DNA from: Syntrophaceae bacterium
Lineage (GTDB): Bacteria > Desulfobacterota > BSN033 > UBA1163
NCBI GenBank assembly: GCA_013388645.1
Contig: JACAEV010000197.1
Span: 1-62,059 of the forward strand
DNA length: 62,059 nucleotides
Direction of reading: 5' to 3'
The notes under the pieces were generated by a model. That model searched no databases. It was given only the letters and a program-made list of their open reading frames with translations, and was not told where the DNA came from. The position numbers were made by a program, and so were the translations under genes. This document shows, piece after piece, positions 44,118-59,074 of this stretch. Numbering within the stretch: position 1 is the stretch's first letter; each line of letters begins with the position of its first letter.

Positions 44118-45284
44118 GTGGATTTTTCTTATACAAACGAACAAGAGATCTTAAAAGATATATTGCGAGAGTTCTGTGATAAGGAGATAACACCAAAAGT
44201 AGCGGAATACGACAGAAAACGAGAATTTGATTATAGCATCATTGAAAAGCTGCATAAACAAAAACTTTTAGGTGTCGTCATCCCTAAGGAATATGGAGGG
44301 GTAGGTGGCAGTTTAATTGATCAAGCAATTATTTGTGAAGAGATTGCCCGTAATTCATTTACAGCGATGGTAGTAACGAATTTTACTTGGTATATGCCCT
44401 ACGAGATACTAAGAGTGGGGACAGAGGAGAATAAGAAAAGGTGGATTTCCTATCTATTTGATGGGAAAAAATTGGGTGCGCATTCTGGTACAGAGGCCGA
44501 TGCCGGAACAGATGCAGCATCGGTTCGAACCTGGGCTAAACTGGAGGGGGATGAATGGGTCATTAATGGAACAAAATGGTTTGTCTCCAATCTTGGCAAA
44601 GCAGATTATTACTTCATTAGTTTACGTACTGCTGAAGACCGTTACAATGGAATGAGCACAATCTTAGTAGAAAAAAATACGCCTGGTATGACCATTGGAA
44701 GAAGGGTTGAACACATTAGCGTACGAGGAATAAATAATGGTGAGTTAATATTTGAGAATTGTCGGGTCCCTAAGGAGAACCTCATCGGTAGATTGAATAA
44801 GGGATTTTATGACATGTTGGTCCTATATGATGTAATAAGATTATTTTTCGCCATAGGGGCAGTTGGGATAGCAAGGGGTGCCTTGGAAAGCTCAATAAAA
44901 TTTGCTCAAGAACGGCAACAGTTTGGTAAGCCCATTGGGGATTTTCAGCTAATCAGAGCAATGATTGCTGACATGGCGACAGAGATCGATGCTGCAAGAT
45001 TGTTAATTTATAGAGCATTGGATATGGAGAGAAAAGGACTCAAACATACAAAAGAGACTTGCATGGCAAAACTCTATGCCACCGAAATGGCCGATAGAAC
45101 TACATACAAAGCTATACAAATACATGGAGGATATGGAGTTACTACGGATTTCCCTGTAGAACGTTATTGGAGAGATGCCCGTATCACCACTATAGGTGAA
45201 GGGACAAGCGAGATCCAAAGGTTGATTATCGCTTCTGAAATATTCAAGAGCGAAAAAATCGTGCTTGACTCAGCACTCGATTAA
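44118..45284 (+). CDS. Acyl-CoA dehydrogenase (adjacent to etfBA, Bcd-like arrangement)
   Basis: 388 aa. Motifs 'GTEADAGTDAAS', 'INGTKWFVSN' and 'YWRDARITTIGEGTSEIQRLIIA'. It has a GTG start. Confidence 0.88.
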   Translation: MDFSYTNEQEILKDILREFCDKEITPKVAEYDRKREFDYSIIEKLHKQKLLGVVIPKEYGGVGGSLIDQAIICEEIARNSFTAMVVTNFTWYMPYEILRVGTEENKKRWISYLFDGKKLGAHSGTEADAGTDAASVRTWAKLEGDEWVINGTKWFVSNLGKADYYFISLRTAEDRYNGMSTILVEKNTPGMTIGRRVEHISVRGINNGELIFENCRVPKENLIGRLNKGFYDMLVLYDVIRLFFAIGAVGIARGALESSIKFAQERQQFGKPIGDFQLIRAMIADMATEIDAARLLIYRALDMERKGLKHTKETCMAKLYATEMADRTTYKAIQIHGGYGVTTDFPVERYWRDARITTIGEGTSEIQRLIIASEIFKSEKIVLDSALD

Positions 45285-45294
45285 TTTGGGTATT

Positions 45295-46062
45295 ATGTTG
45301 AATATAGCAGTCTGTATCAAGGAAATACCCGAGGAAATTCGGGTAAATAAGAAAACATACACCTTGATTAGAGAAGGTATAAAGGGGGTTATTAATCCGT
45401 GCGATAAAAATGCGATAGAGCTATCCGTCACCTTAAAGGAGAAACATGGGGGGAAGGTAACGCTGATTTCCATGGGCCCTCAAAATGTGGAAAAGACTTT
45501 AATACATGGCTTGGCCATGGGGGCGGATCAAGCAGTATTTATTTGTGATAAGGCATTTGCTGGCGCTGATACACTTGCAACAGCATTTACCTTAGTAACA
45601 GCTATAAAAAAACTGGGTCATTTCCAATTAATACTTTGCGGTAAAGCAAGTGCAGACAGTGGCACGCAGCATATTGGACCCCAGATTGCCAATTTTTTAG
45701 GGATTACTCAAGTTACATACGCAGTCGGTCTTGCTGTTGAAAACAACAAGGTACGGGTGAAAAGGCAGTTGATGGATGAATACGAAACTGTGGAAGTGGA
45801 ATTTCCAGTTTTGATAAGCGTTGTTAAAGGAATGAATGAGCCAAGGATTCCATCGTACGTTGACATATATGAAGCATCCAAGAAGGACTTTTTCAGATGG
45901 TCCATTAATGATCTCGGTTTAAAGGAGGACCAGGTAGGTCTAACGGGATCCCCAACGAAAATTAGTAAAATCTTACCACCAGAGACGATTCGGCAGTGCA
46001 AGATGCTACAAGGTACATTAGAGGAAATATGTAATGATTTAGCCCAAATATTGAAGACTTGA
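45295..46062 (+). CDS. etfB: Electron transfer flavoprotein beta subunit
   Basis: 'MLNIAVCIKEIPEE...', 'ISMGPQNVEKTLIHGLAMGADQAVFI' and 'LILCGKASADSGT'. The start is set at ATG 45295, downstream of the ACAD stop. Confidence 0.88.
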   Translation: MLNIAVCIKEIPEEIRVNKKTYTLIREGIKGVINPCDKNAIELSVTLKEKHGGKVTLISMGPQNVEKTLIHGLAMGADQAVFICDKAFAGADTLATAFTLVTAIKKLGHFQLILCGKASADSGTQHIGPQIANFLGITQVTYAVGLAVENNKVRVKRQLMDEYETVEVEFPVLISVVKGMNEPRIPSYVDIYEASKKDFFRWSINDLGLKEDQVGLTGSPTKISKILPPETIRQCKMLQGTLEEICNDLAQILKT

Positions 46063-46073
46063 AGGGTTAAATA

Positions 46074-47051
46074 ATGGAGAACAACAATCAGTATCGAGGT
46101 GTCTGGGTATTTGTAGAGCATAAAGGCAGCCAAATAGAAAAGTGTAGTCTTGAGCTTTTATCTTTAGGGCGCAATCTTGCTAGCGAACTTCAGGTGGATC
46201 TTTCAACCCTTGTGATAGGGAATCTCATGGGACGATTATCTGAGGAATTGATGTACTATGGGGTGGATGTCGTATATGTCGTGGAAAACCCTGTTCTTGA
46301 AAGGTATACTACTTCTCCCTACCATAAAATTACTTGTGACTTAATCAAAGAATATAGGCCGGAGATAGTTCTATTTAGCTCTACACCTATAGGTATGGAT
46401 TTAGCCCCCAGAGTTGCTTGTGAACTAAAGACTGGCCTGGTTGCTCACTGTGTAGATTTGAAAATAGATAAGGGCAAGAGACAGTTACTTCAAATTTGTC
46501 CTTACGGTGATTATATGGCAACTATGATCACCACAGTGAAACCACAAATGGTTACAGTTCAGCCTGGGGTAACCCCTCTACCTCCAAGGGGAGAATTCAA
46601 ACAGGGACAAACAGTGCAGATTGAACGGGAAATAGATATTGGGAATATAAAAATCATAGAAGTGGTGAAGCCAGAAAAAGCTGATATGGGAAAGATCGAG
46701 GAATCGGATGTTATTATTGCAATCGGGCGGGGGGTGAAGAACATGAGCTTGGCTGAGAAACTGGCAGAATGCCTTGGAGGAATATTGGGTGCTACACAGC
46801 CAATTGTTGATGCTGGACTATTACCGGAATCACGTATGATCGGCCAGACAGGGAAAGCAGTCCGACCTAAGGTATATATTGCTTGCGGAATTTCTGGGGC
46901 AGGGCAACACATCGTAGGAATGAAAAATTCTGGGTTAATTGTAGCTATTAATACTGACGAAAAGGCTCCCATATTTAAAGTTGCTGATTACGGTATCATT
47001 GGAGATGTTTCTAAAGTGATCCCTGCATTAATTGCCGCTTTAAACCGCTGA
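46074..47051 (+). CDS. etfA: Electron transfer flavoprotein alpha subunit
   Basis: 325 aa. Motifs 'VWVFVEHKGSQIEKCSLELL' and 'VYIACGISGAGQHIVGMKNSGLIVAINTDEKAPIF'. Confidence 0.9.
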   Translation: MENNNQYRGVWVFVEHKGSQIEKCSLELLSLGRNLASELQVDLSTLVIGNLMGRLSEELMYYGVDVVYVVENPVLERYTTSPYHKITCDLIKEYRPEIVLFSSTPIGMDLAPRVACELKTGLVAHCVDLKIDKGKRQLLQICPYGDYMATMITTVKPQMVTVQPGVTPLPPRGEFKQGQTVQIEREIDIGNIKIIEVVKPEKADMGKIEESDVIIAIGRGVKNMSLAEKLAECLGGILGATQPIVDAGLLPESRMIGQTGKAVRPKVYIACGISGAGQHIVGMKNSGLIVAINTDEKAPIFKVADYGIIGDVSKVIPALIAALNR

Positions 47052-48814: not shown

Positions 48815-49885
48815 ATGCAAGATCTTTATGAGAAATTACGCAAGAAACTTGATAGACATCCGATGGGTACCCCTGCGCACCCAACTATTTTAAATATCCT
48901 TAAGGAACTATTCACACCTGATGAGGTTCGTCTGGCGTTAAGTATGAGCTTTAAGAGTTTAGAGATAGAAGAGATTGCAAAAAGGGCTGGCGTTCCAACA
49001 CTTGAAGCTTCTTCTTTGTTAGAGAGCATGGCTGACAAGGGGCTAATATACTGCACGAAAAACAAGGGGCGAATCCGATACACTCTTATTCCACCCATGC
49101 CAGGTTTCTTTGAATTTAGTCTTGTCAAGGGAGAGGAGACGGCCCAGACTCGACGACTCGGTGCGCTTTGGGAAGATTATTTTAAAAGTGCCTTGGGCCA
49201 TTCTATGCACAATACAAGAATCCCTATGAGCAGGGTGATATCTGTGAACAAGAAAATATCTTATGGGGTGGCTATACTTCCCTATGAAGAGTCACTTGAA
49301 ATTGTTAAAAAAGCCAATAAGGTGGCTTTAGGCCAATGTCAATGCCGATTTTCAGCTCGAAACTGTGATGCTCCGCTTGATGTTTGCATCTTATTAGAAG
49401 GTTGGGCAGAATTCTTGGTCGATAGGAAGTTGGCGCAATCCATTTCGGTTGAGGAGGCGATTGATGCCTTACAGAGAGCTGAAGCAGCGGGTCTTGTTCA
49501 TATGACAACCAATACGAAAACGCCGGTTCCCTATATTTGTAATTGCTGTTCTTGTTGCTGTTATATGCTTCGTGGAGTTGTTGAGCTTGGGTACAGAGAC
49601 CTGGCTTCCTCCAGATTCATCGCCTTTGTAGATGAAGAAACTTGCACGGGATGTAATGCATGTGTTGAGATTTGCAAGTTTAAAGGTGTAGAAGTTAATG
49701 AAGAGGGGGTAGCTAAGGTGATAAAAGATTATTGTATGGGTTGCGGTCTTTGCAGCTCGGCATGCCCGGAGGATGCAATCTCGATGGTTCAACGGAGTGA
49801 TTACCACGAACCGTATAATTCGGGTAGAGACCTATTGCTAGATATTGCCAAAGATAAAAATAAGCTGAACTTTGAATTATCTTAG
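48815..49885 (+). CDS. Cys-rich Fe-S protein with a C-terminal 2x[4Fe-4S] ferredoxin domain (putative electron-transfer partner)
   Basis: 356 aa. Motifs 'CQCRFSARNCDAPLDVC', 'YICNCCSCCCYMLRG', 'CTGCNACVEICKF' and 'CMGCGLCSSACPEDAI'. There is no TM segment. Confidence 0.7.
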   Translation: MQDLYEKLRKKLDRHPMGTPAHPTILNILKELFTPDEVRLALSMSFKSLEIEEIAKRAGVPTLEASSLLESMADKGLIYCTKNKGRIRYTLIPPMPGFFEFSLVKGEETAQTRRLGALWEDYFKSALGHSMHNTRIPMSRVISVNKKISYGVAILPYEESLEIVKKANKVALGQCQCRFSARNCDAPLDVCILLEGWAEFLVDRKLAQSISVEEAIDALQRAEAAGLVHMTTNTKTPVPYICNCCSCCCYMLRGVVELGYRDLASSRFIAFVDEETCTGCNACVEICKFKGVEVNEEGVAKVIKDYCMGCGLCSSACPEDAISMVQRSDYHEPYNSGRDLLLDIAKDKNKLNFELS

Positions 49886-49915: not shown

Positions 49916-50698
49916 ATGAATTACAAATACATACTATTTTCAAGAATGGACCGTGTGGGCAGAATAGAGGTTAATCGTCCTGAAAGTTTGAATTCTGTGA
50001 CGATCGATGTCATGAGAGAGCTTGATTATGCCATCAAAGAGATTGAAGATGATGAGCATCTTAGAGGGGTCATCATAACGGGGGCTGGGGACAAAGCGTT
50101 CATTTCAGGCGGTGATATAAAGTATATGGAAAAGATTACAGCGAGAGAGCTGCTCAATGAACAAACAGAGGGGCAAGAGATTATACAGAGGATGGAGGAG
50201 CTTAGAAAACCAATGATTGCTCGAATCAATGGAATTGCTCTGGGTGCCGGCACTGAGATCGCCCTTGCCTGCGATATTAGGATTGCCTCTGAAAAGGCGC
50301 GCTTTGGGTTGCCAGAGATAACGCTTGGGATCATCCCTGGTTATGGCGGGACCCAACGATTACCTCGTTTGATTGGTAGCGGTAAAGCTAAGGAGTTAAT
50401 GATGACAGGCGACATTATCTCTGCCGAGGAGGCTTATAGGATAGGCTTGGTTAACAGGGTGGTCCCCCATAATCAATTGGACGCAGAAGTGGATAGTGTG
50501 GCCAAGAAGTTGTGTGAACGGCCACCCCTTGGTCTGCAAATGGTTAAGGAAGCTATAAATTACGGCATGCAGATGGATCTTCATAGTGCAATCCGCATGG
50601 AAGCACGCCTCTTTAACATCCTTTTTAACTCTGAGGACAAAAAAGAAGGTATGGCAGCTTTTTGGGAGAAGCGGAAGCCCGCTTTTAAAGGGCGATAA
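49916..50698 (+). CDS. Enoyl-CoA hydratase (crotonase)
   Basis: 260 aa. Motifs 'GRIEVNRPESLNS', 'GAGDKAFISGGD', 'INGIALGAGTEIALACDIR', 'GLPEITLGIIPGYGGTQR' and 'EKRKPAFKG'. Confidence 0.9.
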   Translation: MNYKYILFSRMDRVGRIEVNRPESLNSVTIDVMRELDYAIKEIEDDEHLRGVIITGAGDKAFISGGDIKYMEKITARELLNEQTEGQEIIQRMEELRKPMIARINGIALGAGTEIALACDIRIASEKARFGLPEITLGIIPGYGGTQRLPRLIGSGKAKELMMTGDIISAEEAYRIGLVNRVVPHNQLDAEVDSVAKKLCERPPLGLQMVKEAINYGMQMDLHSAIRMEARLFNILFNSEDKKEGMAAFWEKRKPAFKGR

Positions 50699-50749: not shown

Positions 50750-51898
50750 ATGGATTTTACTCTCACCAAAGAACAACAAGATATTATTAATGCAGCGAAA
50801 GAGTTTGCTCGGAAAGAATTTCCAGATCGTGCTCAGGAATTCGACCGCGACGAGACGTTTGACTTCGAGATCTGGAAGAAAGCATGCAATCTTGGATTTG
50901 TAGGCTTAAACATTAAAGAAGAATATGGTGGTCAAGGATTGGGAATTTTTGAGCATTGTTTGGTAACTGAGGAATTCTGGGCTGTAGACGCTGGTATTGG
51001 AACTGCGATTATTTCGACAGCCTTCGGTTCCGAGCTTTTGAGTTTATACGGGACGGAAGAACATAAAAGGAAATATTTACCCCCTCTTGTTTCTGGTAAG
51101 TCAATCATGGGAACTGCAATTACCGAACCGGATGCAGGCTCTGATGTAACTCAGGCCGTTACGACTGCGGTTAGAGATAAAGACGAATATGTTATTAATG
51201 GTTCAAAAATTTTTATTACTAACGGAGATAAGGCGGACTTTCTCGTTGTATTTTGCCGAACAGAACCCGATAACCCTAATAAGTATAACCGGTATAGTTT
51301 TATTATAGTTGAAACGAACAGAAAGGGGTTTGAGGCCAACAAGTTGCGTGGAAAACTTGGCATACGCGCCAGTGATACTGCTGAGGTATCCTTTTCAGAT
51401 GTCAGGGTACCGATTTCCAATCTCATTGGAAAAGAAGGCGAAGGGTTCAAAGAATTAATGATGTTCTTTGATTTGACAAGATTAATAGTTTGTGCTGAAG
51501 CTGTGGGAATCGCTCGGGCCGCGCTTGAAGAGGCAATAAACTACACAAAAAAGAGATGTCAGTTTGGGCAACCCATTGCATCCTTTCAAGTCACTCAATT
51601 CAAGATTGCCGAAATGGCTACGCTCATCCAAGCGGCCAAAAACCTCTATTATGAGGCCGCATGGAAAGTGGATCATGGCATGGTAGATCCGAAATTGATC
51701 GCCATGGCAAAGTGGTTTTCGGGCGAGGCGGCTGTCCGTTGCGCTGATGAAGCCTTGCAGATGCATGGAGGATACGGATATTTAGATGAATATAAGGTAC
51801 AACGTATTTATCGGGACGCTAAGGTGGTTGAGATTTATGAAGGAACAAAGGAGGTAGAGAAGATTATTGTGGCAAGAGCTTATTTACCTAAGTATTAA
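50750..51898 (+). CDS. Acyl-CoA dehydrogenase (canonical)
   Basis: 382 aa. Motifs 'AITEPDAGSDV', 'INGSKIFITNG' and 'IYRDAKVVEIYEGTKEVEKIIVA'. Confidence 0.9.
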   Translation: MDFTLTKEQQDIINAAKEFARKEFPDRAQEFDRDETFDFEIWKKACNLGFVGLNIKEEYGGQGLGIFEHCLVTEEFWAVDAGIGTAIISTAFGSELLSLYGTEEHKRKYLPPLVSGKSIMGTAITEPDAGSDVTQAVTTAVRDKDEYVINGSKIFITNGDKADFLVVFCRTEPDNPNKYNRYSFIIVETNRKGFEANKLRGKLGIRASDTAEVSFSDVRVPISNLIGKEGEGFKELMMFFDLTRLIVCAEAVGIARAALEEAINYTKKRCQFGQPIASFQVTQFKIAEMATLIQAAKNLYYEAAWKVDHGMVDPKLIAMAKWFSGEAAVRCADEALQMHGGYGYLDEYKVQRIYRDAKVVEIYEGTKEVEKIIVARAYLPKY

Positions 51899-51948
51899 TT
51901 AAAAAATACATGGTTTTAAGACTTGATTTGGAGAAGCACGAGGTTTTT

Positions 51949-53091
51949 ATGGAAATTTATTTCAAAGAGGAACATGAAATCTTCAGAAAAACAATCCAAT
52001 CATTTATTGAAAAGGAAATACTTCCTTTAGTCGATGAGGCTGAAGAAAAGGAGAAATTCCCAGTAGAACTTTTTCCAAAGATGGGGAGCCAGGGATTTTT
52101 GTGTATTAGAGTCCCTAAAACCTATGGGGGGAGAGATGGGGACAAGATTATGGAATGCATTGCTATTGAGGAGCTTACAAAGGGCAGTTCCGGGATCACA
52201 AGTGCCTTTACAACCCATGGAGGTCTGGCAACAGATCCTATTTTGCGCTTTGGAAGCGAGGATCAAAAACAAAGATATCTTGTTCCCGCTGTAAAAGGAG
52301 AAAAAATTGGAGCTTTTGGATTGACGGAGCCAGATGCTGGGTCTGATGCAGCAAGCCTTCGAGCGACAGCCGAAAAGAGGCTTGGCGGCTATCTCATCAA
52401 TGGAACAAAGACTTTTATTACAAATGGCCCCATTTGTCATTACGTGATTGTTGCTGCTTATACGGATGTGACAAAAAAAGGAAGTGGGATTAACCTCTTT
52501 ATCGTGGATAGAGAGAATCCAGGTTTCTCTGTAGTTAAGAAGTTGACTAAACTTGGACATCGCTCTACAGAGACCGGTGAGTTATCCTTTGATGACTGCT
52601 GGGTTCCTAAAGAGCAGATGATCGGCGATCAGGAGGGTGGGGGATTTAATCAGATCGAGTACACACTTCGGTCTGGAAGAATCTCAACAGGAGCCAGGTG
52701 CATTGGGTTGGCAAGGTCCATCCTCGAAGAGTCGATGTACTATGTGAGGAATGCTAAAAAACAAGGAAGGATGGTAGGAAGAAGTCAATCCGTACGTTTT
52801 TCCCTCGCCGAAATGGCTATGTACTTGGATGTCATGAAGGCCATCACCTATCGTTGCGCATGGTTGTATGACTGCGGTAAAGTTACCATGAAAGATGCTG
52901 CGATTGTGAAACTTTTCTGTACCGAAACGCTTTGTAAGATGGCATATGATGGTTTGCGATTGCAAGGCGGAGAGGCTTATTTGAATAGTAACCTCATGCA
53001 AAGGCTTCTGAGAGATTCCCGCCTGCACAGAATTCCCGAGGGAACCTCGGAAATTCAACACCTTTTGATCTTCAATGAACTTGGAATCTAA
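51949..53091 (+). CDS. Acyl-CoA dehydrogenase
   Basis: Motifs 'GLTEPDAGSDAAS', 'INGTKTFITNG' and 'LLRDSRLHRIPEGTSEIQHLLI'. The start is set at ATG 51949 (MEIYFKEEHEIF...); the track ORF starts at 51910. Confidence 0.85.
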   Translation: MEIYFKEEHEIFRKTIQSFIEKEILPLVDEAEEKEKFPVELFPKMGSQGFLCIRVPKTYGGRDGDKIMECIAIEELTKGSSGITSAFTTHGGLATDPILRFGSEDQKQRYLVPAVKGEKIGAFGLTEPDAGSDAASLRATAEKRLGGYLINGTKTFITNGPICHYVIVAAYTDVTKKGSGINLFIVDRENPGFSVVKKLTKLGHRSTETGELSFDDCWVPKEQMIGDQEGGGFNQIEYTLRSGRISTGARCIGLARSILEESMYYVRNAKKQGRMVGRSQSVRFSLAEMAMYLDVMKAITYRCAWLYDCGKVTMKDAAIVKLFCTETLCKMAYDGLRLQGGEAYLNSNLMQRLLRDSRLHRIPEGTSEIQHLLIFNELGI

Positions 53092-53110
53092 TAAGTGAAG
53101 AGGATTTTAT

Positions 53111-54211
53111 ATGGACTTTGAACTGAGCGAAGAGCAAAAAGATGTTAAAAAAGCGGCTCGGGAATTTGCGCGAGGAGAGTTCGATAATGACCGAGCTTCT
53201 GAGCTTGAACTCCAGCTGGGATTCCCTACGGAGATATGGAAGAAAGCATGCCGTCTTGGGTTCATAGGAATCTATATTCCGGAGGAGTATGGAGGACAAG
53301 GTTTGGGTTTCCTTGAAAATATCCTTGTGATAGAGGAGTTTTGTCGGAAGGATTCGAGAATTGGAAGCGCTTTAGGTTTTGCTGATTTAGGCACTGAGAT
53401 TTTATGTGCGTATGGTTCTGAAGAACAGAAGAAATTTTATCTTGTTCCCGTAGTAAGAGGTGAAAGTCTTTCAACGGTAGCATTTGATGAGCCAGAGACA
53501 TTGCCTACAGAAGGGATAAAACATGGGGAAAATATTTTGATTTGTGGGGTAAAACGGTTTGTATTGAATGGAGGGAATGCAGGTTACTATTTGGTGCCTT
53601 TCCAAATGGATGGGAGGGTATCGATTATTCTGATAGAGAAAGATAGACAAGGGATTGAGTTTATCCCCCAGGAGAAGATGGGGATGAAGATGGTATCTAC
53701 AGGGGAACTTCAGTTTAAAAATGTTTCTGTTCCGATGGATCACCTCATTGGGGAAGAAGAAAAAGATTTCTATATCTTAGAGAATTTTATTAGCCAGACC
53801 CATCTTAGGCTTGGTGCCCAGGGTTTGGGGATCGCCCAGGGAGCTTTTGACAGAGGGTTGGATTATGGCAAACAGAGGGAGCAGTTTAGCCGGAAATTGA
53901 TTCAGTTTCAAATTATTCGGCATCGGTTAGCGGAGATGGCAACGCGGATTGAGATGGTGCGTTTATTAGTTTATAAAGCTGCGTGGCTAATAGATATAGG
54001 TCGGATGGATCCAAAGCTTTGCGCAATGGCGAGGGCGAGTTCAGGGGATCTGGTTGTAGATGTGGTAGATGAGGCACTTCAGATATTTGGGGGCTATGGA
54101 TATATGAGAGAAACGGAGATTGAGCATTTTTATCGAGATGCGTGGTTGGTAGATATTTTTGGAGGGAAGAGCAATTTGAGGGACAGTATTGCCAAATGGG
54201 TAACAGGTTAA
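53111..54211 (+). CDS. Acyl-CoA dehydrogenase-like protein lacking the catalytic Glu and the FAD motif (probable non-catalytic partner subunit)
   Basis: 366 aa with overall ACAD architecture. 'VAFDEPETLPTEG' replaces 'TEPxAGSD', and 'FYRDAWLVDIFGGKSNLRD' replaces 'YRDAKxxxIYEGTxEIQ', so Glu becomes Gly. Confidence 0.75.
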   Translation: MDFELSEEQKDVKKAAREFARGEFDNDRASELELQLGFPTEIWKKACRLGFIGIYIPEEYGGQGLGFLENILVIEEFCRKDSRIGSALGFADLGTEILCAYGSEEQKKFYLVPVVRGESLSTVAFDEPETLPTEGIKHGENILICGVKRFVLNGGNAGYYLVPFQMDGRVSIILIEKDRQGIEFIPQEKMGMKMVSTGELQFKNVSVPMDHLIGEEEKDFYILENFISQTHLRLGAQGLGIAQGAFDRGLDYGKQREQFSRKLIQFQIIRHRLAEMATRIEMVRLLVYKAAWLIDIGRMDPKLCAMARASSGDLVVDVVDEALQIFGGYGYMRETEIEHFYRDAWLVDIFGGKSNLRDSIAKWVTG

Positions 54212-54566
54212 GAAATAAACAACCGATCCTAAGTTTGTTAACAGGAATGGATGAATTCGATTTTGTCCACGAGAAATAATTAAAAGCCCTTCTCCCTTTA
54301 TCATGGTTTCCGCCTTGTCTGCATTTAGTTCTTTAATAGGTTATTCAGGACTCACCATATTTGCCTTTCCTCCTGGAGAATATTTTTTCTCCGTCTACTC
54401 CCAATTTGTGGGCCCCTCTACACATTGGCGAGATGCAAGACTGCTAAGACTTTTATTAAGATAAGGAGAGGTGCTCTCTGTCAGAATCCAAGAAGACATC
54501 TATGGAAGTCGGTGTAAAAATAAATTCAATAAATTTGAAAATCTAATTCAATCAATGGAGGATGGG

Positions 54567-55709
54567 ATGGGTCCTTTAATTGGTTACAGGGTCGTGGAAA
54601 TAGTAGGGGTGGGTCCTGGGCCCATGTGTGCCATGTTACTGTCCGACATGGGGGCAGAAGTTTTGCGGATTGAGCGTATTGGAGCTGGAGGTCTCGATAT
54701 AGGAATCCCAGCTAAGTTCAATCTCTTAAATCGGGGTCGACAATCCGTAGCCATCGACTTAACAAAAAAGGAAGGAGCTGAGACTGTCCTTCGTTTGGTG
54801 GAGCGAGCAGATGCCCTGATTGAAGGCTTCCGTCCTGGTGTTGCCGAGCGACTTGGGATTGGTCCAGAGGCATGCTTCGTTCGGAACCCAAAATTGATTT
54901 ATGGTCGTATGACCGGCTGGGGACAAGAAGGCCCACTCGCTCATACCGCAGGTCATGACATTAATTATATTTCTTTGGTCGGCGCACTGCATGCCATTGG
55001 ACGAGAGGGAGAGAGGCCGGTGCCACCGCTTAATCTTGTAGGTGATTTCGGAGGGGGTGCATTGTACCTTGCATTTGGAATTGTTTGCGGCCTTCTGGAG
55101 ACTTCGAAGTCTGGTAAAGGACAGGTAGTGGATGCTGCAATGGTAGATGGAGTTGCCTCGTTGATGACTTTATTTTTTGGCCTCAAGGCTGCAGGCATCT
55201 GGACAAGCCAGCGAGGTGAAAACCTCTTAGATACAGGTGCCCATTTTTACGACGTCTATGAAACTGCAGATGGAAAATATATCTCTATTGGTTCAATAGA
55301 ACCCAAGTTTTATGCAGAACTTTTACGACTTCTTGATATAGGTGAGGAGGACCTCAGCCATCAAATGGATCGTAAGAGGTGGCCAGAGATGCATGAACGT
55401 CTCAAGGTTGTATTTAAAACAAAAACCCGCGATGAATGGTGTGCCATTATGGAAACGTCTGATGCCTGCTTCGCCCCGGTCCTATCAATGGATGAATCCC
55501 CAAACCATCCCCACAATAAAGCGCGTGGCACGTTTATAGAGATCGATGGGGTGATTCAACCAGCTCCTGCACCACGTTTCAGCCGGACTAGACCTGAAAT
55601 CCAAGGTCCGCCATCCGAGCCTGGTCAGAATACAAATGAGGCTCTTGCTGACTGGGGGTTTTCTAAGGAGGAAATCATTAAGTTGCGGAAAGCAGGAGTA
55701 ATCCAATAA
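54567..55709 (+). CDS. Alpha-methylacyl-CoA racemase-type family III CoA-transferase fold enzyme
   Basis: Motifs 'GPLIGYRVVEIVGVGPGPMCAMLLSDMGAEVLRIER', 'GHDINYISLVGALHAIGREGERPVPPLNLVGDFGGGALYLAFG'. The start is ATG 54567 after GGAGGA, or alternatively 54555. The track ORF starts at 54471. Confidence 0.8.
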   Translation: MGPLIGYRVVEIVGVGPGPMCAMLLSDMGAEVLRIERIGAGGLDIGIPAKFNLLNRGRQSVAIDLTKKEGAETVLRLVERADALIEGFRPGVAERLGIGPEACFVRNPKLIYGRMTGWGQEGPLAHTAGHDINYISLVGALHAIGREGERPVPPLNLVGDFGGGALYLAFGIVCGLLETSKSGKGQVVDAAMVDGVASLMTLFFGLKAAGIWTSQRGENLLDTGAHFYDVYETADGKYISIGSIEPKFYAELLRLLDIGEEDLSHQMDRKRWPEMHERLKVVFKTKTRDEWCAIMETSDACFAPVLSMDESPNHPHNKARGTFIEIDGVIQPAPAPRFSRTRPEIQGPPSEPGQNTNEALADWGFSKEEIIKLRKAGVIQ

Positions 55710-55792: not shown

Positions 55793-56326
55793 ATGAAGAA
55801 GCTTGTTCATACCAGAGAAATCTCAATACAAACTTCCGATATGGGAGACCATCGCATCCTTTTGGAGGGTAGCCTCATAGACCACCGGTTTCAGCCAACG
55901 CATAACGAGGCCTCAGAGGAGTCCGGGCTTGTTCACCATATGGTTATTCGATTGAAGGTCAAGGGGCCTGGGTTGTTGATCGAACAAGCAGAAGCGACCA
56001 TGCCTCATCATCCGAGAGAAGAATGCCCAGAGGTGCTTCCTTAAATCCGGAATTTGGAAGGATTGGGGATCGCCCCAGGTTACATTATGAAGGTAAAGAG
56101 AGTCATTGGAGGCGCAAAGGGGTGTGCACACCTGACGAGCCTCGTCATCGCCATGGGGGAGTCTGTTGTCCAGGGATACTGGTCTGCCTATGGGGAGAAA
56201 AGAAGAAGGGGTCTTAGTGAACAGGCCATAAAAAAATTCATCAATACCTGTCATCTTTGGAAGGAGGATGGTCCTATCGTAAAGGAGCTACGTGAGAGTT
56301 GGAGACCTCAGGGATCATCAGAATAA
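55793..56326 (+). pseudogene. DUF2889-family gene interrupted by an in-frame TAA (56042-56044)
   Basis: The two track ORFs (55793..56044 and 56054..56326) are in the same frame. The joined sequence reads '...HHMVIRLKVKGPGLLIEQAEATMPHHPREECPEVLP*IRNLEGLGIAPGYIMKVKRVIGGAKGCAHLTSL...', which is continuous with the DUF2889 pattern (H.M...P...C....L.G..I..G.....GG..GC.HL). Confidence 0.65.
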
Positions 56327-57290: not shown

Positions 57291-58082
57291 ATGAACATTG
57301 TCGTCTGTATTAAAAGGGTCCCGGAAACAGCTGATGCAGATGTCTCCATCGGCAAATCAGGAAAGGACATCGATAAAAGTGGGCTAGCATTCGATCTGAA
57401 CGAGTGGGACAGCTATGCGATTGAAGAAGCCATCCTGCTCAAAGAGAAATTGGGCGGAACCGTAACGGTCCTTTCTATCGGGGGAGAAGATTCGAACGAA
57501 TCCCTCAGAAAATGTTTAGCCATGGGGGCAGATGATGCCATCCGGTTGACCGATCCTGCTTTTGAAGGGTCAGATGGTTTCGTCACGGCAAAGATTTTGG
57601 CAGAGGCGATTCGAAAAATCCCTTATGACCTCATCCTCACAGGCACTCAAGCCGAAGACGATGGATATGGGCAGGTGGGGGTGGTCTTGGCCGCACTGCT
57701 TGGAATCCCTCATGCCGCTTTAGTCAACCGTCTCGGTGTCCAAGATAAGAATGTAAAGGTTCATCGAGAGTTGGAAGGGGGGGTAGAGGAAGTATTTGAA
57801 CTGGATCTTCCTGCGGTGCTCACTATCCAAACTGGAATCAATGAACCCCGATATGTCTCCATCATGGGAATCCGAAAGGTGGCCAAAAAAGAGATTAAGA
57901 CTTTGGGCACTTCAGATCTCAATCTAAAGGTTGAGGAAGTGGGTCTCACTGGGTCAGATATCCAGCTAGAAAAGATCTTCCTTCCACCGGTTGGTGAAGG
58001 AGCCGAGATGTTAGAGGGAAAACCAGAAGAGATCGCATCGAAAGTATTTGATATTCTGAAAGAAAAAGGAGGGCTCGCCTAA
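57291..58082 (+). CDS. etfB: Electron transfer flavoprotein beta subunit (second copy)
   Basis: 263 aa. Motifs 'MNIVVCIKRVPETAD', 'LSIGGEDSNESLRKCLAMGADDAIRL' and 'LILTGTQAEDDGYGQ'. An AAGGAAGGAGG RBS is present. Confidence 0.9.
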   Translation: MNIVVCIKRVPETADADVSIGKSGKDIDKSGLAFDLNEWDSYAIEEAILLKEKLGGTVTVLSIGGEDSNESLRKCLAMGADDAIRLTDPAFEGSDGFVTAKILAEAIRKIPYDLILTGTQAEDDGYGQVGVVLAALLGIPHAALVNRLGVQDKNVKVHRELEGGVEEVFELDLPAVLTIQTGINEPRYVSIMGIRKVAKKEIKTLGTSDLNLKVEEVGLTGSDIQLEKIFLPPVGEGAEMLEGKPEEIASKVFDILKEKGGLA

Positions 58083-59074
58083 TGAAAGAGATCATCGTCC
58101 TTGCGGAACATCGACGTGGAGAATTGAGAGATGTGACATGGGAGATACTCTCCAAAGGCAGACAATTGTCAGAGAGCATGGGGGCAGAGATAGGAGTCGC
58201 TCTTTTGGGCAAAGGAGTGAGCAAGATCGCCGAGGTTCTCAAACCGAAAGCCCACAGAGTCTTTCTGATCGAGGATGATCGACTCGAGTTTTACAACTCT
58301 GAGACCTATGAAAAAGTTCTGACCCAGCTGATCACAGAAAGGAAACCACCCCTAACCCTAATCGGACATACGGCGATGGGTATGGACTTTGCCCCCAGCC
58401 TTGCAGCTCATTTAAAGATGCCCCTGGCTACGGATTGTATTGGAATCGATGCAGCAGGAGAAGCCTTTTCCCTGACTCGCCAACTCTATGGAGGAAAAGT
58501 GAATGCGAAAGTTTCCTTTTTGAAGAAAGGGCCGTACATGGTAACCGTTCGTTCTGGGGCCTTTCCTGTAATAGAAAAAGAAGCTCTTCTGGGTGAATTG
58601 GTGAAGCTTCCTTCACCCCTGACCGATGAAGGTCTGGCCAAACGGTTTCTCCAGTATGTGGAAGCTGCTGTAGGAGAAGTTGATATTACACAAGCTGATA
58701 TCTTGGTTTCTATAGGAAGAGGAATTAAAGAAGCCGAAAATATTCCGATGGTCAGAGAATTTGCTGATGCCATAGGAGGAACCCTTGCATGCTCCAGGCC
58801 TGTGGTGGATAAGAAATGGTTGCCCAAGGACCGCCAAGTAGGAACATCTGGTAAAACAGTGAAACCAAAGGTTTACATTGCTATTGGTATCAGCGGCGCT
58901 TTCCAGCATATTGCAGGGATGAAAGGTGCAGGCACAGTGATCGCTATTAATAAAGACCCAAAAGCTCCTATCTTCAGCGCCGCGACTTACGGGATTGTGG
59001 CAGACTTATTCAAAATCGTTCCTGTCCTGAAAGATAAGGTTAAAGGCCTTAAGAAAATAAGAGTTACGAGTTAA
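58082..59074 (+). CDS. etfA: Electron transfer flavoprotein alpha subunit (second copy)
   Basis: 330 aa. Motifs 'IIVLAEHRRGELRDVTWEIL' and 'VYIAIGISGAFQHIAGMKGAGTVIAINKDPKAPIF'. Confidence 0.9.
   Translation: MKEIIVLAEHRRGELRDVTWEILSKGRQLSESMGAEIGVALLGKGVSKIAEVLKPKAHRVFLIEDDRLEFYNSETYEKVLTQLITERKPPLTLIGHTAMGMDFAPSLAAHLKMPLATDCIGIDAAGEAFSLTRQLYGGKVNAKVSFLKKGPYMVTVRSGAFPVIEKEALLGELVKLPSPLTDEGLAKRFLQYVEAAVGEVDITQADILVSIGRGIKEAENIPMVREFADAIGGTLACSRPVVDKKWLPKDRQVGTSGKTVKPKVYIAIGISGAFQHIAGMKGAGTVIAINKDPKAPIFSAATYGIVADLFKIVPVLKDKVKGLKKIRVTS

What the first reader, a model, noticed from the sequence alone, without database searches (positions are those of the whole stretch)
50750..54211. Three tandem acyl-CoA dehydrogenase genes, the last a pseudo-enzyme: possible heteromeric ACAD for bulky substrates
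ACADs at 50750 and 51949 keep 'TEPDAGSD' and the catalytic Glu ('YEGT' and 'PEGT'). The third (53111) keeps the fold but reads 'DEPETLPTEG' and 'IFGGKSNL', so it has no FAD-phosphate motif and Gly in place of the catalytic Glu. It has an excellent RBS and an uninterrupted frame, so it is maintained. In Mycobacterium tuberculosis cholesterol catabolism, adjacent fadE pairs (ChsE1-ChsE2, ChsE4-ChsE5) form alpha2beta2 ACADs. In those enzymes only one subunit type supplies the catalytic base, and the tetramer binds only half the usual number of FAD. This gives an enlarged pocket for polycyclic acyl-CoAs. The same logic may apply here in an anaerobe.
Basis: partly seen in the sequence, partly recalled or inferred. 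Interest (0 to 1): 0.62.

Follow-up and report, generated by a model that had tools for sequence, protein, structure and literature searches.

The report
Two-subunit acyl-CoA dehydrogenase with dead partner
Two neighbouring fatty-acid-oxidising enzyme genes have each lost the opposite half of a shared cofactor site, so they most likely work only as a pair, a design known from cholesterol-degrading bacteria that seems to have arisen separately in oxygen-avoiding bacteria.

Summary
Three tandem ACAD genes sit at 50750-51898, 51949-53091 and 53111-54211. The third keeps the fold (AF2 pLDDT 86; TM 0.92 to SCAD/Bcd structures). It lacks the TEPxAGSD loop, the flavin-N5 Thr and the catalytic Glu, and it has no IVD-type substitute Glu. 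It is not decaying: dN/dS is 0.08-0.16.

The partner is the second gene, not the first. The second protein ("alpha") keeps every same-subunit FAD contact and the Glu. It has lost the residues an ACAD lends to its neighbour's FAD (Arg297 to Ala, Gln365 to Arg). The third protein ("beta") keeps exactly those residues. Both losses destroy the same site and spare the other, which fits an obligate alpha-beta dimer with half the usual FAD.

Beta belongs to a well-supported clade of 55 cis-degenerate ACADs; 53/53 distinct members keep the trans Arg. Alpha belongs to a clade of 13 with the reverse pattern. In all nine independent loci examined, the two types are adjacent.

By sequence both proteins are Bcd/SCAD-type. 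They are not ChsE/Ipd/Pim members, so this looks like an independent origin.

A bulky substrate is not supported. An adjacent alpha-methylacyl-CoA racemase suggests 2-methyl-branched acyl-CoAs. No biochemistry exists.

The parts
51949..53091 (+). Alpha subunit (380 aa). This is the catalytic ACAD. It keeps TEPDAGSD, FITNG and the Glu in PEGT, but has lost the trans FAD contacts (RxxFG becomes A-KKQG; QxxGGxGY becomes RLQGGEAY).
   Evidence: It lies in a clade of 13 with support 1.0. dN/dS is 0.05-0.07. AF2 pLDDT is 85.9.
53111..54211 (+). Beta subunit (366 aa). This is a non-catalytic ACAD paralogue. The FAD loop is deleted, FITNG reads FVLNG, the catalytic Glu is Gly, and the helix-G Arg is His. 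It retains the trans contacts REQFSRKLIQFQ and QIFGGYGY.
   Evidence: It lies in a clade of 55 with support 1.0. dN/dS is 0.08-0.16. AF2 pLDDT is 85.8 and TM is 0.92 to SCAD/Bcd.
50750..51898 (+). ACAD-1 (382 aa). It is fully canonical (all cis and trans motifs, YEGT) and is probably an ordinary homotetramer acting at another step.
   Evidence: It is present in L002/L003 but not next to the pair in L001, L004, L011, L089 or L090.
54567..55709 (+). Alpha-methylacyl-CoA racemase (family III CoA-transferase fold).
   Evidence: E = 1e-120 to M. tuberculosis MCR 1X74 over residues 34-395 of the long ORF. The orthologue directly follows beta in L002/L003.
49916..50698 (+). Crotonase-type enoyl-CoA hydratase directly upstream of the ACAD trio.
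   Evidence: Pfam ECH_1, 5.5e-70. The same position is occupied in L002/L003, L004/5, L011 and L089.
48815..49885 (+). TrmB-like HTH plus 2x[4Fe-4S] protein. It heads the conserved block with ECH, the ACADs and MCR.
   Evidence: The orthologue heads the same block in L002.
45265..47051 (+). EtfB and EtfA, the probable electron acceptor for the ACADs. A second EtfBA set lies at 57291-59074.

Best explanation
Genes 51949-53091 (alpha) and 53111-54211 (beta) most likely encode the two subunits of an obligate heteromeric acyl-CoA dehydrogenase. The probable form is an (alpha-beta)2 tetramer with two FAD and two active sites instead of four.

In any ACAD dimer, each FAD is held by 'cis' residues of its own subunit (isoalloxazine, ribityl, catalytic Glu) and by 'trans' residues of the neighbour (ADP part). 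Alpha keeps all cis residues and the Glu but has lost the trans residues. Beta has lost the cis residues and the Glu but keeps the trans residues. Both losses hit one and the same site, the one in beta. The site in alpha stays complete only if beta is the neighbour.

Shown here: the residue pattern, its conservation, purifying selection, invariable gene adjacency, and descent from Bcd/SCAD-type ACADs. Inferred: physical association, FAD stoichiometry, and electron transfer to the EtfBA encoded nearby.

The pair sits in a beta-oxidation block (hydratase, canonical ACAD, alpha, beta, alpha-methylacyl-CoA racemase). The substrate is therefore tentatively a 2-methyl-branched acyl-CoA, with odds of about 0.35.
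For: - **Residue map.** Using the human SCAD contact list (PMC13027082), the window proteins read as follows.
  - Cis contacts: S155 is T in alpha and D in beta. G160/S161 are GS in alpha and deleted in beta. T187 is T in alpha and L in beta. E392 is E in alpha and G in beta.
  - Trans contacts: R297 is A in alpha and R in beta. Q365 is R in alpha and Q in beta. G369 is G in the window's alpha (but E in its orthologues) and G in beta.
- **Clade-wide pattern.**
  - Beta clade, n=53 distinct: R297 in 53/53, Phe in 53/53, Q365 in 48/53, the GGxG glycines in 50-51/53. T187 is kept in 0/53 and the catalytic Glu in 4/53.
  - Alpha clade, n=11 distinct: all cis residues and the Glu in 11/11. R297, Phe and Q365 in 0/11.
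- **Adjacency.** Alpha and beta are direct neighbours, from a possible overlap (L011, start uncertain) to a 56-nt gap. This holds in the window, L001, L002/3, L004/5, L011, L012, L089 and L090, and with other alpha lineages in L015, L017 and L018. The canonical sisters of alpha (P0131, P0140) have no beta neighbour. Among 80 genome loci the Fisher p is 6e-4.
- **Selection.** Beta dN/dS is 0.08-0.16.
- **Fold.** Intact in both subunits.
- **Fusions.** Natural two-domain fusions with the same complementary pattern exist in other ACAD lineages: P0283, P0345 and P0353.
- **Precedent.** The same division of labour is described for ChsE4-ChsE5 (PMC11153573; PMC8399759).
Against: - There is no protein-level evidence of any kind. 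No complex prediction could be run.
- Expression could not be checked, because the only RNA runs of the study hold none of the sequence.
- ACAD-1 has intact cis contacts and could in principle also pair with beta.
- The window's alpha keeps G368/G369 and the FQ-motif Gln, so some residual trans binding is not excluded.
- The cis/trans assignment rests on one published contact list for a homologue, not on a structure of this protein.
- The substrate proposal rests on adjacency to the racemase alone. That adjacency is limited to the closest relatives (window, L002/3); a weaker family-III homologue appears in L017.
Confidence: 0.72

Rival explanations
1. Beta pairs with the canonical ACAD-1 (50750), or promiscuously with several ACADs, and not specifically with alpha.
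For: ACAD-1 has all cis contacts, and beta could supply the trans contacts. ACAD-1 is in the same operon in the window and in L002/L003. Beta is closer in sequence to ACAD-1 (42%) than to alpha (28%).
Against: The pair occurs without an adjacent ACAD-1-type gene in L001, L004, L011, L089 and L090. ACAD-1 keeps its own trans contacts, so it needs no partner. Alpha's loss of trans contacts would be unexplained.
Confidence: 0.1
2. Beta is a stand-alone non-catalytic protein, for example an acyl-CoA sensor, a chaperone for alpha, or a docking scaffold for ETF. It would not be a stoichiometric subunit.
For: It is a maintained pseudoenzyme with an intact fold. ACAD-fold proteins with non-dehydrogenase roles are known, for example the complex I assembly factor ACAD9, which appears among the PDB hits.
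Against: The residues conserved best in the beta clade are exactly the ones that bind a neighbour's FAD (53/53 Arg, 53/53 Phe, GGxGY). A free-standing role gives no reason to keep these residues, or for alpha to lose them.
Confidence: 0.1
3. Beta is still an active dehydrogenase that uses other residues for FAD binding and proton abstraction.
For: 4 of 53 clade members have Glu at the canonical position. ACADs are known to relocate the base to helix G; the alpha subunits of L015/L017 do this.
Against: In the window's beta, the helix-G position is Thr and the canonical position is Gly. The FAD loop is deleted, the N5 Thr is Leu and the conserved helix-G Arg is His.
Confidence: 0.05
4. Beta is a recently inactivated gene on its way to loss.
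Against: The frame is uninterrupted. dN/dS is 0.08-0.16 at dS up to 1.8. The same degenerate state is shared by a deep clade of 55 representatives at 50% identity or less.
Confidence: 0.02

Closest known systems
ChsE4-ChsE5 (FadE26-FadE27) and ChsE1-ChsE2 (FadE28-FadE29), the alpha2beta2 ACADs of Mycobacterium tuberculosis cholesterol side-chain degradation
   Same: These are two adjacent ACAD genes in which only one subunit has the catalytic Glu. Alpha binds the isoalloxazine and the substrate, and beta binds the ADP-ribose part of FAD. The tetramer carries two FAD (PMC11153573, PMC8399759).
   Different: Sequence lineage differs. The window proteins score best against Bcd/AcrC/SCAD-type enzymes, and no ChsE chain is among the best 60 PDB sequence hits or the best 50 fold hits. 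The catalytic Glu is at the C-terminal (MCAD/SCAD) position, whereas the Mtb ACADs conserve the LCAD/IVD position (PMC11153573). Alpha shows no helix-E proline signature. There is no steroid gene context, and the host is an anaerobe from a hot-spring metagenome.
IpdE1-IpdE2 and PimC-PimD (pimeloyl-CoA dehydrogenase large and small subunits, Rhodopseudomonas palustris; suspected heterotetramer)
   Same: Both are paired ACAD genes within beta-oxidation-like operons. PimCD acts in an anaerobic aromatic/dicarboxylate pathway (bioRxiv 10.1101/2025.02.21.639450).
   Different: The NCBIfam equivalog scores are far below cut-off. For beta: pimD_small 91.5 against 652.7, IpdE2 67.5 against 450. For alpha: pimC_large 92 against 623.85.
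Homotetrameric butyryl-CoA / short-chain acyl-CoA dehydrogenases (Bcd of Acidaminococcus 4L1F, Megasphaera 1BUC, human SCAD 2VIG)
   Same: These are the closest in sequence and fold (E = 4e-57; TM 0.92). Alpha uses the same catalytic Glu position. EtfBA genes are nearby.
   Different: Those enzymes have four identical subunits, each with a full set of cis and trans FAD contacts. Here the contacts are split between two gene products.

Membership tests
Alpha2beta2 heteromeric ACAD (architectural class defined by ChsE1-2, ChsE4-5, IpdE1-2) | Two ACAD-fold proteins encoded by adjacent, co-oriented genes | tested here: met
   The spacer is 19 nt in the window. Adjacency is conserved in 9 independent loci.
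Alpha2beta2 heteromeric ACAD (architectural class defined by ChsE1-2, ChsE4-5, IpdE1-2) | Only one subunit carries a catalytic Glu | tested here: met
   Alpha has PEGT. Beta has FGGK, with Thr at the helix-G position.
Alpha2beta2 heteromeric ACAD (architectural class defined by ChsE1-2, ChsE4-5, IpdE1-2) | FAD contacts divided: alpha supplies the isoalloxazine side, beta the ADP-ribose side | tested here: met
   Met at sequence level only, by the reciprocal conservation table mapped on the SCAD contact list.
Alpha2beta2 heteromeric ACAD (architectural class defined by ChsE1-2, ChsE4-5, IpdE1-2) | Physical alpha2beta2 assembly with 2 FAD per tetramer | not testable with these tools
   No multimer prediction and no biochemistry is available. 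Concatenated sequences are not accepted by the folding tool.
ChsE / IpdE / PimCD sequence families (common descent) | Score above the curated cut-off of the NCBIfam equivalogs (IpdE2 NF050027, PimC TIGR03204, PimD TIGR03203) | tested here: not met
   Scores were 67-92 bits against cut-offs of 450-653. In the tree, beta and alpha fall among Bcd-type ACADs.
ChsE / IpdE / PimCD sequence families (common descent) | Steroid or dicarboxylate catabolic gene context | tested here: not met
   The neighbours are ECH, ACAD, MCR, DUF2889, Etf, acyl-CoA ligases and a B12 mutase. No steroid ring-degrading genes were seen.
Acyl-CoA dehydrogenase superfamily (Pfam PF02771/PF02770/PF00441) | Three-domain ACAD fold | tested here: met
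   All three domains score above the gathering threshold in all three proteins. See also the AF2 models and the Foldseek search.
Catalytically competent ACAD | Catalytic Glu plus own FAD-binding loop and N5 Thr | tested here: not met
   This applies to beta (53111) only: Gly, a deleted loop and Leu. ACAD-1 and alpha meet the feature.

The most novel reading that the evidence does not exclude
The window's pair would be one member of a large, so far undescribed class of obligate alpha-beta acyl-CoA dehydrogenases. This class arose independently of the steroid-type enzymes, inside the butyryl-CoA dehydrogenase lineage. It is widespread in anaerobic Thermodesulfobacteriota (Syntrophorhabdus, Syntrophobacter, Desulfobacteraceae and relatives), with dozens of clusters at 50% identity. 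Under this reading, half-site ACADs are a recurrent evolutionary solution: they appear again in fused two-domain forms and possibly in Bacillota pairs. They would then be a hidden component of anaerobic beta-oxidation of branched or otherwise awkward acids, not a peculiarity of steroid degraders.
Probability: 0.5. Interest if true: 0.68.

Novelty: new variant of a known kind. Interest (0 to 1): 0.58.

Why it matters
Heteromeric ACADs are currently treated as a hallmark of steroid (and perhaps pimelate) degradation in Actinobacteria and Proteobacteria.

If the pairs found here are real complexes, the same half-site architecture evolved at least once more, from ordinary butyryl-CoA dehydrogenases in strict anaerobes. 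Dozens of sequence clusters now annotated as generic 'acyl-CoA dehydrogenase' would then be non-catalytic subunits, and genome-based counts of beta-oxidation capacity would overcount enzymes.

The reciprocal-loss pattern (cis in one gene, trans in the neighbour) is a simple sequence rule for recognising such pairs. It is also a clean natural example of how a homomer becomes an obligate heteromer by complementary degeneration.

It would also point to a dedicated enzyme for methyl-branched acyl-CoAs in syntrophic or sulfate-reducing communities.

Tried and rejected
- **Own genome.** I could not count ACADs genome-wide or confirm taxonomy. 'Syntrophaceae' comes only from an earlier unchecked note.
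- **Genome scan.** Close orthologues came only from metagenome contigs.
- **Expression.** No RNA run holds the gene. The three metatranscriptomes of the same study are tiny.
- **Papers.** The primary papers on heteromeric ACADs (Wipperman 2013, Yang 2015, Gadbery 2020) and Kim 1993 are not held. I used secondary open descriptions instead.
- **Literature search.** Searches for an anaerobic or Bcd-type heteromeric ACAD or an ACAD pseudoenzyme found nothing relevant. This is weak negative evidence, because the library is partial.
- **Fused proteins as direct relatives.** Rejected. Their beta-type domains fall outside the 55-member beta clade, so they are independent cases.
- **Pseudogene reading.** Rejected on dN/dS and clade depth.
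- **The 355-nt beta-MCR spacer.** It has no repeat elsewhere in the window or loci, no Rfam family, and no convincing promoter or terminator.
- **Organism names.** The cluster look-up gave none.
Full report
**1. Observation**

ORFs at 50750-51898 (382 aa), 51910/51949-53091 (393/380 aa) and 53111-54211 (366 aa) lie head to tail on the + strand. Each matches the N-terminal, middle and C-terminal ACAD domains of Pfam. The quoted motifs are all present:
- The first gene has TEPDAGSD and YEGT.
- The second has TEPDAGSD and PEGT.
- The third has DEPETLPTEG and IFGGKSNL.

HMMER alignments of the third protein to solved Bcd-type enzymes put Gly under the catalytic Glu and show a 6-residue gap in the FAD loop.

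The second gene starts at 51949. That start has a GAGG Shine-Dalgarno, and the orthologues begin MEIYFKEEHE/MDPYFKEEHE.

Ribosome-binding sites are GGAGGA before 50750 and AGAGGA before 53111.

The trio is part of a one-stranded catabolic island. It holds several beta-oxidation sets, three ABC uptake systems, acyl-CoA ligases, a B12 mutase and two EtfBA pairs.

**2. The third protein is maintained, folded and inactive**

Only nine close relatives exist among 5.8 billion clustered proteins (68-92% identity). All share FGGK/YGGK, FVLNG and the deleted loop.

Against the orthologues in L001 and L002, dN/dS is 0.08-0.16 at dS of 0.6-1.8. The neighbouring genes give 0.05-0.07.

AlphaFold2 gives a confident ACAD fold (pLDDT 85.8, pTM 0.87). 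Foldseek places the model at TM 0.92 on homotetrameric SCAD/Bcd/MCAD structures.

The IVD/LCAD-type alternative base position on helix G is Thr (ISQTHL). The Arg that follows it in 155/155 canonical sequences is His.

**3. The second protein is degenerate in the complementary way**

The cryo-EM description of human SCAD lists the FAD contacts (PMC13027082). From the same subunit it names F152, L154, S155, T187, G160, S161, T364 and E396. From the adjacent monomer it names R297, Q365 and G369.

The table maps the informative subset of these, plus the catalytic Glu E392, onto the window proteins:

| SCAD residue | Type | ACAD-1 | Alpha (51949) | Beta (53111) |
|---|---|---|---|---|
| S155 | cis | T | T | D |
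| G160/S161 | cis | GS | GS | deleted |
| T187 | cis | T | T | L |
| E392 | catalytic | E | E | G |
| E396 | cis | E | E | N |
| R297 | trans | R | A | R |
| Q365 | trans | Q | R | Q |
| G369 | trans | G | G (E in orthologues) | G |

In a dimer, alpha's trans residues and beta's cis residues build the same FAD site. Alpha's cis residues and beta's trans residues build the other site. Both genes have therefore lost one site and kept the other. This makes sense only if alpha sits next to beta. An alpha homodimer would lack the trans contacts at both sites.

**4. The pattern is clade-wide**

A full HMMER scan of 1.84 billion representatives found 1735 proteins with E of 1e-30 or better. I classified the best 150, together with all ACADs in the fetched loci, by motif state.

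In a FastTree phylogeny:
- Beta lies in a clade of 55 (support 1.0) in which every member is cis-degenerate. The sister group is canonical 384-aa ACADs of Desulfobacterota.
- Alpha lies in a clade of 13 (support 1.0) that is entirely trans-degenerate. Its sisters P0131 and P0140 are canonical.

Site counts:

| Site | Beta clade (n=53 distinct) | Alpha clade (n=11 distinct) |
|---|---|---|
| R297 (trans) | 53/53 | 0/11 |
| Phe of RxxF (trans) | 53/53 | 0/11 |
| Q365 (trans) | 48/53 | 0/11 |
| GGxG glycines (trans) | 50-51/53 | G368 4/11, G369 ≤1/11, G371 7/11 |
| T187 (cis) | 0/53 | 10 Thr + 1 Ser |
| Catalytic Glu | 4/53 | 11/11 |
| Other cis residues | variable | 11/11 |

Caveat: the representatives were chosen by similarity to beta, so the share of beta-like sequences among them is not a population frequency.

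**5. Adjacency**

Every alpha-clade gene with readable flanks is followed directly by a beta-clade gene. The gap ranges from a possible overlap in L011, where the beta start is uncertain, to 35 nt:
- The window.
- L001, a 466-kb contig where the pair stands alone between a thiolase and a hydratase.
- L002/L003.
- L004/L005.
- L011 (Syntrophorhabdus).
- L012, where the alpha C-terminus lies at the contig edge.
- L089 and L090.

Beta-clade genes also pair with other alpha lineages. One case is L018 (Syntrophobacter). In L015 and L017 (Desulfobacteraceae) the order is beta then alpha. That alpha reads IFAGT but has Glu at the helix-G position (LQQERL), which is an IVD-type base.

The canonical sisters P0140 and P0131 have no ACAD next to them.

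In the 80 genome loci, beta-like and trans-degenerate ACADs co-occur with Fisher p = 6e-4 as scripted. The p-value is lower if the truncated L012 alpha is counted.

**6. Relation to the known heteromeric ACADs**

The open literature describes ChsE4-ChsE5 and ChsE1-ChsE2 exactly in these terms. Alpha binds the isoalloxazine and holds the Glu and the substrate. Beta contacts the ADP-ribose. There are two FAD per tetramer (PMC11153573; PMC8399759). PimCD-like pairs are suspected to be the same (bioRxiv 10.1101/2025.02.21.639450).

The window pair works like these enzymes but is not a member of their families:
- NCBIfam equivalogs for IpdE2, PimC and PimD score 67-92 bits against cut-offs of 450-653.
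- The best family is the Bcd-like AcrC, at 261-317 bits.
- PDB sequence and fold searches rank only homotetrameric Bcd/SCAD-type chains on top.
- The tree derives both subunits from canonical Bcd-type ancestors.

Fused two-domain ACADs with complementary degeneracy (P0283, P0345, P0353) fall in other clades. The split has therefore evolved repeatedly.

**7. Substrate**

The 'bulky substrate' idea could not be supported. The expanded pocket of LCAD/ChsE4 is attributed to a proline at the start of helix E (PMC11153573).

I inferred the equivalent position from the LCAD residues named in that paper (C129-S-G-P132-G-F). No direct alignment to LCAD was made. At that position alpha has SSG-I-TS, and its AF2 model keeps helix 81-93 intact.

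The gene after beta is an alpha-methylacyl-CoA racemase, with E = 1e-120 to Mtb MCR. The same arrangement is found in L002/L003.

More distant pairs sit in ordinary beta-oxidation blocks with ECH, 3-hydroxyacyl-CoA dehydrogenase, thiolase, ligases and uptake systems.

I therefore propose (2S)-2-methyl-branched acyl-CoAs for the window's enzyme. My confidence is low, about 0.35.

**8. Limits**

Nothing here shows a physical complex, FAD content, expression or activity. No multimer prediction was possible. The absence of papers on Bcd-type heteromeric ACADs comes from a partial library.

**9. Verdict**

- Observation: confirmed.
- Interpretation: supported in its core, corrected as to partner and lineage, and unsupported as to substrate.
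- Novelty: a new variant of a known kind, namely an independently evolved and apparently widespread alpha-beta ACAD family in anaerobes.
- Confidence in the heteromer: 0.72.
- Interest: 0.58.

Noticed in passing
window 54212-54566: A 355-nt non-coding spacer separates beta from the racemase gene, whereas the orthologous spacer in L002 is about 20 nt. The extra sequence has no copy elsewhere in the window or loci, no Rfam match and no clear promoter or terminator.
   Followed up: partly
L015 3345-4490; L017 5211-6353 (Desulfobacteraceae MAGs): The alpha-type partners of these beta-clade genes lack the C-terminal Glu (IFAGT) but have Glu at the helix-G position (LQQERL). The catalytic base has therefore moved to the IVD/LCAD site within the same kind of pair. 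The gene order is beta then alpha.
   Followed up: partly
L083 4716-7143 (Bacillus safensis), L042 (Bacillota), L054 (Syntrophomonadaceae), L029: These are tandem ACAD pairs. The upstream protein has lost the trans FAD motifs (for example KQH-PAGLETTI, LHLLGMDGY), but the downstream partner is fully canonical. They could be an intermediate or different kind of heteromer.
   Followed up: no
P0283, P0345, P0353, P0294, P0302, P0344 (740-800 aa): These are natural fusions of two ACAD domains with complementary degeneracy: one domain is alpha-type and the other beta-type, in either order. They fall outside the window's alpha and beta clades, so they are independent origins.
   Followed up: partly
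window 55793-56326: DUF2889 is split into two ORFs (83 and 90 aa), while the L002 orthologue is one 178-aa protein.
   Followed up: partly
window 44118-47051: A further canonical ACAD (GEGT, trans motifs intact) overlaps the start of etfB by 20 nt (ACAD stop at 45284, etfB start at 45265). This is a Bcd-EtfBA type unit and a likely source of the ETF that would serve the alpha-beta enzyme.
   Followed up: no
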